This document shows, piece after piece, positions 2,075 to 5,270 of a stretch of 10,588 bases of DNA (position 1 is its first letter; every line of letters starts with the position of its first letter). The DNA comes from a virus, in the UHGV virus genome UHGV-0127658; one strand, 5' to 3'. The notes below the pieces were generated by a model. That model did not search any database. It was not told the origin of the DNA and saw nothing but the letters and a program-made list of their open reading frames with translations. The position numbers and the translations under genes were made by a program.

Positions 2075-2173
2075 TGTGACTGCATGTAATTTATCAAAAG
2101 CGCACATACCCTATGCTAAACAACTTACTGATTAATTTACTGAAAATCATTTATTAAAAAATAAGGATTGCCA

Positions 2174-3025
2174 ATGAATTTTTCGGAAGAAAAAAATAAA
2201 GATTTCCCCAAAAAAGTACAAACTTCGCTATTTGAAGTAGATTGTAATGACGGATACTCATTTGTAGATGTCTTGAAGACATGCGAAAATTTCAAACAAA
2301 ACTATGACTTTGAGTACTCTAACGACACTCGGGCAAGGATAAAAAGTCTAATAGTTAACGATGACCAAATCTTTGCTGGGATAACACTCTATGAGCCCAA
2401 AGCTTTGGTCCCGGTAACTCCAAAAGATGGAGACCATAACGATTTGCAGGATGTAGATAATTATGATAAATGCCATATATTCTTGCTTGCAACAGAAAGC
2501 AATATTCTAACAATTTTTCAACTATCAGGAACTCATCCTTTATCTAAGTTAAAAAAAATATTTAGCCTCATGAATATCAATGTGAATATTTCTGAGAAAC
2601 TCAACAAAGATGCACTTGGCAAGATAATAAAAGATGGAATACGCTCCATCAGCCTAAGTATTGAAACAACAAAAGAAGATCTAGAAGAGACAAAAGCAAC
2701 ATCATTAGGTATCACTGGAAAAGCTAAAGAAGCTTTGTCAAGATTATTTGAGAAAGAGCAAGATGATGACAACTCTTTCTATGGGCTTCTGACTCTTGAC
2801 AAGAGACATAACCCAAAACTCTTAAATATTGCGAACAAAAATCCAAGCCTGATCATTGATGAATTATCGGAAGAGTTCTTCATCACAACATCAAAAGGCC
2901 AAGCGATCAAAAGCTCTGAAATCAAAACAAAAAAAGATTATTACACAAGAAAGTATGGCTCTACCACCATAAAAGCGGAACACGCTAAGGAAATTCTTGA
3001 GCACTTCAAGGATTTCATACTATAA
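2174..3025 (+). CDS. Hypothetical soluble protein (~283 aa) at the rexA position; candidate sensor component of a prophage exclusion/abortive-infection pair
   Basis: ORF-track 2168..3025 (TTG start); I prefer ATG 2174 with AAGGA at 2163-2167. Lys/Glu/Asp-rich, no TM segments, no P-loop or other motif I can recognise. Co-directional and immediately downstream of cI. Sampled 60-bp lines give roughly 27% G+C versus roughly 55% in the flanking lambda-like genes (hand count, not a full computation). Confidence 0.7.
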   Translation: MNFSEEKNKDFPKKVQTSLFEVDCNDGYSFVDVLKTCENFKQNYDFEYSNDTRARIKSLIVNDDQIFAGITLYEPKALVPVTPKDGDHNDLQDVDNYDKCHIFLLATESNILTIFQLSGTHPLSKLKKIFSLMNINVNISEKLNKDALGKIIKDGIRSISLSIETTKEDLEETKATSLGITGKAKEALSRLFEKEQDDDNSFYGLLTLDKRHNPKLLNIANKNPSLIIDELSEEFFITTSKGQAIKSSEIKTKKDYYTRKYGSTTIKAEHAKEILEHFKDFIL

Positions 3026-3062: not shown

Positions 3063-3554
3063 ATGAGAGGTAAAGATTGGAGTTATATTTTTTCCATAAT
3101 CTTTTTTATCTGCCTTTCTCTTGTATTAACTTATTATTTACATGATAAGGTTAGATATAACAAAGAGTTGCTTGGACTTGTGGCAAATATATTTTCAATA
3201 TTAACAGGGTTTCTGTTACTTGTTATAACCACAAGTGGAGACGTAGCATCGTTTACAGAAGGTAAATCAAGATCAGAAAAGTATGCAACTAAGAGGAAAT
3301 TCGAAATTCGGTTTTCTCGTTACATGATGCTTTTTTACCTCTATCTTACAGTCTTGTGCTTAATATTCTTCTACTACATGCTGCTGCCACCAGGAGACAC
3401 CAGTAAAATCTTAGCAAGCAAGCCGCCTGTGACCAACCTGAGTCTGGCACTTGAGTTTATTATATGCTGGCTAAGCATAATTTCATTTGGATGCTCTTTT
3501 TTCATACCAATAAAGCTGAAACAGATTTATAACGAAAAACTCAAGCAACAATAA
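3063..3554 (+). CDS. Hypothetical small inner-membrane protein (163 aa, four predicted TM helices) at the rexB position; candidate membrane effector
   Basis: ATG 3063 preceded by GGGGGAGG (3050-3057). Four hydrophobic stretches of about 20 aa: WSYIFSIIFFICLSLVLTYYL, LLGLVANIFSILTGFLLLVITT, YMMLFYLYLTVLCLIFFYYMLL, LSLALEFIICWLSIISFGCSFFIPI. Same AT-rich composition as the upstream gene. Topology resembles RexB-type proteins, but the sequence is not what I recall for lambda RexB. Confidence 0.75.
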   Translation: MRGKDWSYIFSIIFFICLSLVLTYYLHDKVRYNKELLGLVANIFSILTGFLLLVITTSGDVASFTEGKSRSEKYATKRKFEIRFSRYMMLFYLYLTVLCLIFFYYMLLPPGDTSKILASKPPVTNLSLALEFIICWLSIISFGCSFFIPIKLKQIYNEKLKQQ

Positions 3555-3986: not shown

Positions 3987-4259
3987 ATGTCCAGAAAAAC
4001 AGAATTTAAAGGCACCGCAGCTTCTCGCCGTAGAGCTCGTCGCGCAAATCTGCAAAGTCAGGAGGCGATCAGCTCCGACAAGCTACACAGGCCAACCCCT
4101 TCACGAGTGGTCTTGCAATGCAAGCGCAAACCAGCAATGAGAGCAGAAGTGATAACTCTGACAACGTTGACCAGAAAATATGAAGGTTCAACTTGTCTTC
4201 CGAACGTAGCCATTTACGCGGCAGGCTACAGGAAATCAAAACAACTGACGGCGAGATGA
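3987..4259 (+). CDS. N: N-type transcription antitermination protein (P22 gp24-like C-terminus), 90 aa
   Basis: The ORF-track entry 3915..4259 is trimmed to ATG 3987, preceded by GGGAGG (3976-3981). Arginine-rich motif near the N-terminus (TAASRRRARRANLQ). The C-terminus LPNVAIYAAGYRKSKQLTAR closely resembles what I recall of the P22 gene 24 product (…LPGVALYAAGHRKSKQITAR). First gene after pL/nutL. Confidence 0.75.
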   Translation: MSRKTEFKGTAASRRRARRANLQSQEAISSDKLHRPTPSRVVLQCKRKPAMRAEVITLTTLTRKYEGSTCLPNVAIYAAGYRKSKQLTAR

Positions 4260-4274
4260 TAAATCATTTGCTAA

Positions 4275-4856
4275 TTACTTGTTTTTGCCATGCTTATCCT
4301 GAGCGATAAGTTCATCCATAAGACTGTCTTTCTTCCCAGCAAACCTAATGTAGCACTCATTTCTATAGCGTTCCGGGATAACAAAACGGTCGATTTCAGG
4401 ATATCCAGTAGCAGAAGGTATCCGAATAAGAAGCCCTTTTTCGAGCAATGAGATTGCTTCAGGGCTTCCCTTTTCTGTCTTTAGCTGGTTATTCGCGGCT
4501 ACAGCGAATGCCAAATACGCTCTTTCTCCAAGAGTTAACGAATCAAACAAATCTTGCACATATTTTTCTTCTTTAGATTTGCGCTTCTGAGCAGCGGATA
4601 CCTCAATTCTTTCAGTCACAGCGTGATAAGCGGAATTAACAACACCGTTAAGCACATAGCTAACGCAGAACAACAGGATGTAATACATCCAATAATGAGG
4701 AAGGATTTCTGGATTATGCAGGTTTATCCATTCTTTTACGCTTACCGGCATAACAATAATCAATATGATCAGGATGATTAGCATATGAATCAACTGTTTA
4801 AGTGTCATTCCTTGCAGGAAAAAATGCATTAGTTCCTGCCACCATGAGTTGTTCAT
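4275..4856 (-). CDS. sieB: SieB-like superinfection exclusion membrane protein (193 aa), antisense to the pL operon
   Basis: Position between N and ral on the opposite strand is as in lambda and P22. Size is close to the ~192 aa I recall for P22 SieB. N-terminal hydrophobic segments (LIHMLIILIILIIVMPVSV, WMYYILLFCVSYVLNGVV). An alternative in-frame start exists at 4829. Assignment rests on synteny and topology, not verified homology. Confidence 0.55.
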   Translation of the reverse strand: MNNSWWQELMHFFLQGMTLKQLIHMLIILIILIIVMPVSVKEWINLHNPEILPHYWMYYILLFCVSYVLNGVVNSAYHAVTERIEVSAAQKRKSKEEKYVQDLFDSLTLGERAYLAFAVAANNQLKTEKGSPEAISLLEKGLLIRIPSATGYPEIDRFVIPERYRNECYIRFAGKKDSLMDELIAQDKHGKNK

Positions 4857-5069
4857 CGGCGTTTCTCTTTTGCTCTCTGTAGGGGTGAATAGAGTTTATC
4901 CGATTTCTCGCTGTAGGGGTACACGAGAACCACCGAGCCTGATGTGGTTAAAAGACAGGCACAATCTTTACTACCGCAATCCACTATTTAAGGTGATATA
5001 TGGAAGAAGAATTTGAAGAGTTCGAAGAGCATCCTCAGGATGTGATGGAACAATACCAGGACTATCCGT

Positions 5070-5270
5070 ATGACTACGACTATTGATAAAAATCAATGGT
5101 GTGGACAATTCAAGCGATGCAATGGATGCAAGCTGCAATCGGAATGCATGGTTAAGCCTGAAGAAATGTTTCCTGTAATGGAAGATGGGAAATATGTCGA
5201 TAAATGGGCAATACGAACGACGGCAATGATTGCCAGAGAACTTGGTAAACAGAACAACAAAGCTGCCTGA
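5070..5270 (+). CDS. ral: Ral-like restriction-alleviation protein, 66 aa
   Basis: 66-aa ORF at the lambda ral position (after N and sieB), the same length I recall for lambda Ral. Cys-rich N-terminal part (CGQFKRCNGCKLQSEC). Recognition is by synteny and size; I cannot verify the sequence from memory. Confidence 0.6.
   Translation: MTTTIDKNQWCGQFKRCNGCKLQSECMVKPEEMFPVMEDGKYVDKWAIRTTAMIARELGKQNNKAA

What the first reader, a model, noticed from the sequence alone, without database searches (positions are those of the whole stretch)
4275..4922. Antisense SieB-like exclusion gene with a tandem 14-bp direct repeat in its upstream region
A 193-aa membrane protein is encoded antisense to the pL operon between N and ral, the position of sieB in lambda and P22. 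Just upstream of its start (on its own strand) the motif CTCNCTGTAGGGGT occurs twice as a direct repeat (4873-4886 and 4907-4920, 34 bp apart). That looks like a paired binding site or promoter element for lysogen-specific expression.
Basis: partly seen in the sequence, partly recalled or inferred. Interest (0 to 1): 0.45.

Follow-up and report, generated by a model that had tools for sequence, protein, structure and literature searches.

The report
SieB exclusion gene with sas antisense-RNA module
This is the well-known prophage superinfection-exclusion gene sieB, and the two repeats upstream of it are real, conserved parts of its already described promoter and antisense-RNA (sas) control region rather than a new pair of protein-binding sites.

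Summary
A 193-aa ORF (4275-4856, minus strand) lies between N and ral, and CTCTCTGTAGGGGT / CTCGCTGTAGGGGT sit at 4873-4886 and 4907-4920. The ORF is SieB (Pfam 1.4e-25, PHROG 2e-123, 85% identical to P22 SieB). The P22 record maps the sieB promoter and RNA start. Transferred by alignment, the proximal repeat is +1..+14 of the sieB mRNA and the distal repeat is -34..-21, overlapping the annotated -35. Both repeats also lie inside the homologue (123/127 nt) of the published P22 sas antisense RNA, which runs in the pL direction. Across 55 distinct relatives, covariation supports an RNA made from the plus strand: the distal repeat forms the top of a hairpin with a GGGG loop, followed by a pseudoknot. 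The proximal repeat is unpaired but is an island of conservation (0.89 identity, flanks 0.39 and 0.47). The same ~100-nt module precedes very different SieB proteins and unrelated genes, from E. coli to Yersinia and Arsenophonus. I infer, without direct evidence, that the distal hairpin offers a second pairing site for the mRNA 5' end. The system is already known. The repeat's role and the module's portability appear undescribed in the papers I could reach.

The parts
4275..4856 (-). sieB coding sequence (193 aa, stop included)
   Evidence: ORF list; Pfam SieB PF14163 E=1.4e-25; phrog_1301 'superinfection exclusion' E=2.1e-123; 99.3% DNA identity to phage HK140, where it is annotated as such; 85% aa identity to P22 SieB
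4275..4784 (-). esc-equivalent: in-frame internal start at Met25 of SieB (P22 Esc, the inhibitor of SieB)
   Evidence: P22 record BK000583 annotates esc starting 72 nt after the sieB ATG. The window has the same Met25 in an identical local sequence. Inferred by homology only.
4857..4886 (-). sieB 5' untranslated leader (30 nt); RNA start equivalent at 4886
   Evidence: The P22 'sieB RNA start site' at 29727 is the A of ACCCCTACAG. It aligns to window 4886.
4873..4886 (.). proximal repeat (core 4877-4886): +1..+14 of sieB mRNA on the minus strand; on the plus strand, part of the unpaired 5' arm of the sas-like RNA
   Evidence: Core identity 0.89 between flanks at 0.39 and 0.47. RNAalifold predicts it unpaired.
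4893..4898 (-). -10 hexamer TAAACT of the sieB promoter
   Evidence: Identical to the 3' end of the promoter feature in the P22 record. The position is kept but the sequence varies in relatives (TATAAT, TAAAAT, TAACAT).
4893..4923 (-). equivalent of the P22-annotated sieB promoter (TGTACC ... TAAACT)
   Evidence: BK000583 promoter feature 29690-29720 transferred by alignment A1. The generic sigma-70 consensus scan does not detect it.
4907..4920 (.). distal repeat (core 4911-4920): -34..-21 of the sieB promoter; on the plus strand, the 5' arm and GGGG loop of a conserved hairpin
   Evidence: Core identity 0.96 in motif-unbiased lineages.
4905..4929 (+). conserved hairpin (UUCUCG-c-UGUA / GGGG / UACA-CGAGAA) of the sas-like RNA
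   Evidence: 11 pairs with 95.8% of cells paired. One-sided changes are all G.U-compatible on this strand, and there is a compensatory CUCG/CGAG to CUCU/AGAG change. RNAalifold predicts it independently.
4930..4960 (+). H-type pseudoknot: CCAC 4930-4933 with GUGG 4944-4947, and GCCUG 4937-4941 with CAGGC 4956-4960
   Evidence: Both helices show compensatory double changes, for example GCCUG/CAGGC to GCCGGG/CCCGGC and CCAC/GUGG to CCUCA/UGAGG. The CCAC/GUGG helix was not in the covariance model yet has 3 of 4 pairs with double changes.
4852..4978 (+). homologue of the published P22 sas antisense RNA contig (127 nt); the covariance-model hit for the conserved module is 4871-4970
   Evidence: The P22A-sas sequence in PMC13397905 Table 2 is found in the P22 record and is 123/127 identical to the window. 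The model hit scores 115.8 bits and is the only one in the window.
3987..4259 (+). N-type antiterminator gene (P22 gene 24 type); shows that pL transcription runs on the + strand across sieB
   Evidence: Pfam N_peptide E=5.6e-32. Coordinates come from the HK140 annotation offset.
5000..5270 (+). orf28-like 28-aa ORF (5000-5086) and ral (5070-5270), the next pL-operon genes
   Evidence: phrog_16060 E=7e-19; Pfam Ral E=1.6e-48; lambda annotation

Best explanation
The locus is the sieB/esc superinfection-exclusion gene with its known control region. A ~100-nt module (about 4871-4970) does two jobs. Read on the minus strand, it carries the sieB promoter that is active in the lysogen (-10 at 4893-4898, RNA start at 4886). 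Read on the plus strand, when a derepressed or superinfecting phage transcribes from pL through N, it gives the sas antisense RNA. That RNA covers the sieB leader, ribosome-binding site and AUG, and in P22 it switches translation from SieB to its inhibitor Esc. The two repeats are two 10-nt cores of this module. The distal core forms the upper stem and GGGG loop of a conserved sas hairpin and also lies over the -35 position. The proximal core is the first ten bases of the sieB mRNA, and its complement lies in the unpaired target-recognition arm of sas. Because the cores are identical, the 5' end of the mRNA is complementary to both places in sas. I infer that the distal hairpin acts as a second, possibly nucleating, pairing site for the mRNA 5' end, as the RNA-OUT loop does for the 5' end of RNA-IN in IS10. 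What is shown: gene identity, positions relative to the P22-mapped promoter and RNA start, homology to sas, RNA structure by covariation, and conservation of both cores. What is inferred: that sas is made here from pL, the Esc switch, and the loop/5'-end pairing role of the repeat.
For: SieB identity. P22 promoter, RNA start and esc annotation with direct read; transfer to the window. Published P22 sas sequence and its detection only in infected cells (PMC13397905); listed size 105 nt and function (PMC12197685); 123/127 identity to the window. Structure: 95.9% of cells paired against 22-48% when the partner is slid, 7 pairs with double changes, 0/500 shuffles; RNAalifold agrees. G.U 32 against A.C 5 fixes the strand. 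Motif-unbiased loci (Rac, Yersinia, Phytobacter, Arsenophonus, phrog_1244 cargo) all carry the module with both cores, and the cores are conservation islands. The four natural variants of the proximal core seen in motif-unbiased loci (Rac, L318, L319, L233) each include a C-to-U change in the mRNA, which would still pair with the distal core as G.U; L319 also has an extra base. Cofolding the first 20 nt of the mRNA with a sas fragment that holds only the distal copy gives ddG -15.3 kcal/mol, against -4.7 +/- 2.5 for shuffles.
Against: No expression data exist for this window. I could not read the two 1993 primary papers, so the ends, origin and any published structure of sas rest on database annotation and later papers. 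Single-sequence folding is no better than shuffles (z -0.47), and the ensemble does not expose either GGGG. A 4-nt loop is small for a kissing contact. The cognate antisense site is already perfectly complementary, so a second site is not obviously needed. The wobble-compatible variants are few and are transitions, so they are weak evidence. The fixed 33-35 bp spacing of the cores follows promoter geometry, which also fits a DNA-level role.
Confidence: 0.6

Rival explanations
1. The repeats work as DNA. They are two sites for a host or phage DNA-binding protein, or unusual RNA polymerase contacts, that set sieB transcription in the lysogen. One site is at the -35 position and one at the start site.
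For: The positions -34..-21 and +1..+14 relative to the P22-mapped start are where regulators act. The -35 region is very poor and the consensus scan misses the promoter, so extra contacts or an activator are plausible. Core spacing is held at 33-35 bp. The proximal core is conserved although no RNA helix explains it.
Against: No candidate protein is known, and the phages that share the module share no regulator (lambda, P22, Rac, Arsenophonus prophages). The motif occurs nowhere else in the window. Direct repeats 34 bp apart lie on different faces of the helix. The distal copy shows strand-specific RNA covariation. This reading is not exclusive of the RNA explanation.
Confidence: 0.2
2. The identity of the two cores has no joint function. 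The distal core is kept because it builds the sas hairpin. The proximal core is kept for a separate reason, such as start-site choice, promoter escape, or stability or translation of the short-leader mRNA. The resemblance is a relic of an old duplication.
For: The cores do not change together. Proximal variants (Rac, L318, L319, L233) leave the distal core unchanged or changed differently. The proximal core is unpaired in the consensus fold. All cargo genes have short leaders of 14-31 nt that start with this sequence.
Against: Ten of ten bases stay identical in both places across lineages whose SieB proteins are only 16-20% identical. A relic is unlikely to survive that without selection for sameness. 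No known start-site or leader element has this sequence.
Confidence: 0.15
3. The cores are short homology patches that serve as recombination linkers for swapping cargo genes between lambdoid phages.
For: Mosaic junctions lie at the core edges. Lambda and P22 diverge right after the proximal core. L049 and L080 lose everything upstream of a core. One module precedes at least five unrelated or very divergent cargo genes.
Against: Ten base pairs is very short for homologous exchange. Junctions next to conserved blocks are expected wherever selection keeps a block. This idea does not explain the hairpin and pseudoknot covariation.
Confidence: 0.05

Closest known systems
Phage P22 sieB / esc / sas system (Ranade & Poteete 1993; annotated in GenBank BK000583)
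   Same: Same gene (85% aa), same position between gene 24/N and ral on the opposite strand, same promoter sequence and start-site context, same internal Esc start. The sas region is 123/127 identical and includes both repeats.
   Different: Nothing essential. The leader is one base shorter and there are three substitutions in the antisense arm. Function is assumed by homology and was not tested here.
Lambda sieB (git) and Rac prophage sieB of E. coli K-12
   Same: The same ~100-nt upstream module with both cores. Lambda is identical over the distal part. Rac is diverged but keeps the hairpin, the pseudoknot and both cores, with one mismatch.
   Different: The proteins are only 20% and 16% identical to the window's SieB. 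The leader downstream of the proximal core is unrelated. An Esc/sas switch has not, to my knowledge, been shown for them.
IS10 RNA-IN / RNA-OUT (own knowledge, not tested here)
   Same: An antisense RNA covers the 5' end and ribosome-binding site of a weakly expressed mRNA. In IS10, pairing starts between the 5' end of the mRNA and the loop of the antisense hairpin, which is the mechanism I infer for the distal repeat.
   Different: In IS10 the loop is the true antisense partner of the mRNA 5' end. Here the hairpin lies upstream of the mRNA start, so the complementarity comes from a duplicated motif. There is no sequence relationship.
Lambda OOP/cII and P22 sar/ant antisense RNAs (own knowledge; both RNAs are named)
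   Same: Short phage-encoded cis-antisense RNAs that tune an immunity-related gene at the post-transcriptional level.
   Different: OOP and sar have their own promoters and intrinsic terminators. The sas-like module shows no U-tract terminator and ends in a pseudoknot.
KilS small RNA of Rac (b4833)
   Same: Lies on the same (pL-direction) strand beside sieB in Rac, and a KilS-like sequence abuts the module in several phage contigs.
   Different: It is a separate RNA about 60 nt beyond the module, with its own promoter and terminator, detected in Hfq-based RIL-seq data (PMC8175672). It is not antisense to sieB.

Membership tests
SieB superinfection-exclusion protein family | Sequence match to the family profile | tested here: met
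   Pfam PF14163 E=1.4e-25, 90 bits against a cut-off of 26; phrog_1301 E=2.1e-123
SieB superinfection-exclusion protein family | Gene lies between N and ral, on the strand opposite to pL transcription | tested here: met
   N at 3987-4259 (+), sieB at 4275-4856 (-), ral at 5070-5270 (+); same order in lambda and P22
SieB superinfection-exclusion protein family | Membrane protein with N-terminal hydrophobic helices | not tested
   Hydrophobic stretches (LIHMLIILIILIIVMPV, YWMYYILLFCVSYVLNGVV) are visible in the translation. No transmembrane predictor was run.
SieB superinfection-exclusion protein family | Aborts lytic growth of superinfecting phages in a lysogen | not testable with these tools
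   Phenotype known for P22 (PMC10461980). It requires infection assays.
P22-type sieB/esc dual-product gene | In-frame internal start giving Esc (P22 codon 25) | tested here: met
   P22 esc CDS starts 72 nt after the sieB ATG. The window has Met25 in the same context. Actual use of the start was not tested.
sas antisense RNA (P22) | Sequence homology to the P22 sas RNA | tested here: met
   123/127 nt identical to the published P22A-sas contig, which maps to the P22 record
sas antisense RNA (P22) | Complementary to the sieB leader, ribosome-binding site and start codon | tested here: met
   The homologous region 4852-4886 (+) is the exact complement of sieB mRNA +1..+35
sas antisense RNA (P22) | Made by the infecting or derepressed phage, not by the repressed prophage | not testable with these tools
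   In P22 the reads occur only in infected cells (PMC13397905). The orientation downstream of pL-N fits. No data exist for this window.
sas antisense RNA (P22) | Conserved secondary structure on the antisense strand | tested here: met
   Hairpin plus pseudoknot: 95.9% paired, 7 pairs with double changes, 0/500 shuffles, G.U 32 against A.C 5; RNAalifold agrees. No Rfam family exists for comparison.
Sigma-70 promoter (PsieB) | -10 hexamer at the right distance from the mapped start | tested here: met
   TAAACT at 4893-4898, six bases before the start-equivalent at 4886, identical to P22
Sigma-70 promoter (PsieB) | Recognisable -35 hexamer / consensus match | tested here: not met
   The consensus scan finds no promoter here. 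The -35 position reads TACCCC or TGTACC. The promoter is accepted only because it is annotated in the P22 record.
Paired direct-repeat operator for a DNA-binding protein | Repeated sites with a cognate binding protein and helical phasing | tested here: inconclusive
   Two copies 33-35 bp apart, about 3.2 turns. No third copy. No candidate protein. Binding cannot be tested here.

The most novel reading that the evidence does not exclude
The ~100-nt element is a portable 'express in the lysogen, silence in lytic growth' cassette. It is a weak promoter fused back-to-back with a structured antisense RNA (hairpin plus pseudoknot), and lambdoid phages attach it to whatever exclusion or accessory gene they carry. 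The 10-nt repeat would be a cargo-independent RNA handle. Every cargo mRNA starts with ACCCCUACAG, and every sas-like RNA displays its complement twice. Any incoming phage with the module could then pair with, and perhaps silence, the resident prophage's exclusion mRNA even when the genes differ.
Probability: 0.2. Interest if true: 0.6.

Novelty: already known. Interest (0 to 1): 0.3.

Why it matters
As a gene call this is routine: sieB, its promoter and the sas RNA were worked out in P22 in 1993, and the window is a near copy. Three points may be useful. First, the control region is far better conserved than the protein it controls: it is identical between lambda and P22, whose SieB proteins share about 20% identity. 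Second, it has a covariation-supported hairpin and pseudoknot, has no Rfam family, and is unannotated in about 18% of complete E. coli genomes. Third, it also drives unrelated genes. If the repeated motif proves to be an RNA-RNA recognition handle, it would explain how phages escape their own, and perhaps each other's, exclusion systems. It would also give a simple marker for finding prophage accessory and defence genes.

Tried and rejected
1. A small hairpin around the proximal copy (CTCT...AGAG in the window). The best flank stem averages 4.19 bp, against 4.22 for cross-lineage flank pairs and 4.17 for shuffles, so it is not supported.
2. Single-sequence folding of either strand is not better than shuffles (z -0.47 and -0.11), and the ensemble does not expose the GGGG runs. 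The structure rests on covariation only.
3. Rfam at E<=1 gives no relevant family.
4. The generic promoter/terminator scan finds neither PsieB nor a terminator for sas.
5. Coding explanation for the plus-strand ORF 4849-5016 that spans both repeats: rejected. The copies are 34 nt apart, so they are in different frames, and relatives differ by single-base indels.
6. KilS of Rac as the sas equivalent: rejected. It lies about 60 nt beyond the module and has its own promoter.
7. The primary papers (PMID 8335629, 8339929) and the E. coli start-site paper (PMC4288677) are not held. Four further text searches added nothing on the repeat.
8. A 13-sequence SieB alignment was too diverse for the locus search. 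The narrower alignment found only 5 species genomes, so the motif-unbiased sample is small.
9. Single-protein locus searches returned mostly near-identical copies.
10. PADLOC gave no meaningful hit for SieB or the alternative cargo.
11. The viral-contig motif scan also picked up Thr/Pro-rich coding repeats (L095, L111, L136, L167, L183). These were discarded.

Full report
**Observation.** The window is the immunity/early-left region of a lambdoid prophage, with pL transcription on the + strand. It holds a cI-type repressor (1373-2074), an N-type antiterminator (3987-4259), a 193-aa ORF on the opposite strand (4275-4856), a 28-aa orf28-like ORF (5000-5086) and ral (5070-5270). The repeat finder extends them to 15/17 identical over 17 nt, 34 nt apart. 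Nothing else in the window matches, even with two mismatches (0.09 expected, 0/200 shuffles with two hits).

**The gene.** The ORF is SieB: Pfam PF14163 at E=1.4e-25 and phrog_1301 at E=2e-123. The 900-nt region is 99.3% identical to phage HK140 and about 90% to P22-like Salmonella phages, all annotated as sieB between N and ral. The protein is 85% identical to P22 SieB but only 20% and 16% to the lambda and Rac SieB proteins.

**Where the repeats sit.**
- The curated P22 record BK000583 annotates a sieB promoter (29690-29720), a 'sieB RNA start site' (29727), the sieB CDS (29758) and an internal esc CDS (29830).
- Reading that DNA shows the promoter feature runs TGTACC...TAAACT, and the start is the A of ACCCCTACAG.
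- The window aligns to this region with a one-base indel in the leader.
- In window coordinates this gives: -10 TAAACT at 4893-4898, RNA start at 4886, a 30-nt leader and the Esc start at Met25.
- The proximal repeat is therefore +1..+14 of the sieB mRNA. The distal repeat is -34..-21 and overlaps the annotated -35.
- The generic sigma-70 scan does not find this promoter, because its -35 is very poor.

**The antisense RNA.** P22 makes an antisense RNA, sas, that switches translation of the sieB message from SieB to Esc (Ranade & Poteete 1993, as summarised in PMC12197685 and PMC7067206). A 2026 small-RNA study prints the P22 sas sequence as a 127-nt contig seen only in infected cells (PMC13397905). 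That sequence is present in the P22 record and is 123/127 identical to window 4852-4978 on the + strand. It contains both repeats.

**Comparative analysis.**
Five of them are coding Thr/Pro repeats and were discarded. The rest share a ~100-nt module.
- On the sieB strand the module reads GCCTG-n-CCAC-n-CAGGC-n-GTGG-TTCTCG-tgt-ACCCCTACAG-CGAGAA-n-[-10]-n6-ACCCCTACAG.
- In an alignment of 45 distinct modules, and again in a covariance-model alignment of 55 distinct hits, three helices are supported on the + strand. One is a hairpin whose upper stem and GGGG loop are the distal repeat. The other two together make an H-type pseudoknot.
- The figures are 95.9% of cells paired against 22-48% when partners are slid, seven pairs with changes on both sides, and 0/500 shuffles reaching the observed values.
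- One pseudoknot helix was not in the model, yet 3 of its 4 pairs show compensatory change. RNAalifold predicts the hairpin and the 3' helix on its own.
- G.U cells outnumber A.C cells 32 to 5. The folded molecule is therefore the + strand RNA, that is the pL-direction or sas transcript, not the sieB mRNA.
- The distance from the sieB start codon to the end of the pseudoknot (4852-4960) is about 109 nt. This is close to the 105 nt listed for sas.

**Are both cores selected?** The scan was biased towards the motif, so I also collected loci by annotation or by protein only. These were lambda, Rac of E. coli K-12, phrog_1244-cargo loci, and SieB loci from Yersinia pekkanenii, Phytobacter and two Arsenophonus genomes. 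All of them carry the module (65-113 bits). Mean pairwise identity in this set is 0.96 for the distal core and 0.89 for the proximal core, against 0.39 and 0.47 for the sequences on either side of the proximal core. Lambda and P22 are identical through the distal part, keep the proximal core, and diverge completely right after it. Only the 10-nt core is conserved; the extra four bases of the 14-mer are specific to P22-type loci.

**What does not hold.** The small hairpin that the window sequence suggests around the proximal copy is no better than chance across lineages, and the consensus fold leaves that copy unpaired. Single-sequence folding is not significant. Rfam has no family for the module.

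**Mechanism.** The well-supported part is that the repeats belong to a two-way module: a lysogen-active promoter on one strand and the structured sas RNA on the other. The inferred part concerns why the two cores are identical. The mRNA's first ten bases are complementary both to their true antisense site and to the distal hairpin. Cofolding predicts that the mRNA 5' end can invade that hairpin (ddG about -13 to -15 kcal/mol, against -4.7 +/- 2.5 for shuffles). The lambda leader is predicted to bind the window's sas at the distal copy. All four proximal-core variants in motif-unbiased loci include a C-to-U change in the mRNA, which would still pair with the distal copy as G.U. This suggests a second or nucleating pairing site, as in IS10 RNA-IN/RNA-OUT. 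It is a hypothesis only: the variants are few, the loop is only four bases, and the fixed 33-35-bp spacing follows promoter geometry.

**Portability.** The module precedes P22-type, lambda-type, Rac-type and a divergent 'MPNWIEAV' type of SieB. It also precedes a non-SieB protein family (phrog_1244, with a C-terminal CxxC...CxxC) and two singletons. The leader is always short, 14-31 nt. Each locus has exactly one module. By megablast, this lineage of the module is present in 991 of 5,426 complete E. coli genomes, and no feature was annotated under the match in any of the 12 sampled records.

**Verdict.** The repeats are real and selected, but they belong to an already characterised promoter/antisense-RNA region. 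The locus itself is already known, at 99.3% identity to an annotated phage. In the literature I could reach, three things appear undescribed: the role of the repeated core, the pseudoknotted structure, and the use of the module with unrelated cargo. They justify a modest interest score.

Noticed in passing
window 2168-3025 and 3063-3554 (+): Two ORFs between the repressor and N, at the position of lambda rexAB. One is 285 aa (phrog_23561, unknown function). The other is a 163-aa hydrophobic protein with no family hit. GC is about 35% here against about 44% around it. No PADLOC match. This looks like an acquired accessory or defence pair.
   Followed up: partly
window 4814-4839: A 13+13-nt near-perfect palindrome (GCAGGAAAAAATG/CATTAGTTCCTGC) inside sieB codons 6-15. 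It lies between the SieB and Esc start codons and just upstream of the sas 5' end on the + strand. It could matter for the translational switch or for sas processing.
   Followed up: no
loci L096, L144, L161, L208-L233 (viral contigs): The same promoter/antisense module drives a non-SieB gene family (phrog_1244, 164-189 aa, coiled-coil N-terminus, C-terminal CxxC...CxxC, unknown function). Singletons of 83 aa (L087) and 105 aa (L177, membrane protein) are driven by it too.
   Followed up: partly
L207 4406-4503 (E. coli K-12 Rac, NC_000913 1418405-1418502): The annotated small RNA KilS, known from Hfq-based RIL-seq data, lies about 60 nt beyond the module on the pL-direction strand. A KilS-like sequence with a terminator directly abuts the module in L113, L116, L132, L153, L189 and L204.
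   Followed up: partly
L003 672-690 (lambda); L049 and L080 upstream of sieB: Mosaic junctions coincide with the edges of the repeat cores. Lambda and P22 diverge immediately after the proximal core. L049 has foreign DNA replacing everything upstream of the last bases of the distal core. L080 has foreign DNA up to a few bases before the proximal core.
   Followed up: no
window 4857-4970 versus E. coli genomes: This lineage of the module occurs in 991 of 5,426 complete E. coli genomes (up to 3 copies per genome, 7 places on plasmids). None of the 12 sampled records has an annotated feature under the match. There is no Rfam family for it.
   Followed up: partly
L315 (JAJXBQ010000254.1): A 4.2-kb contig binned into a 'Segatella copri' MAG carries an E. 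coli-type sieB (92% aa) and a near-identical module. It is probably a binning contaminant rather than a Bacteroidota prophage.
   Followed up: no
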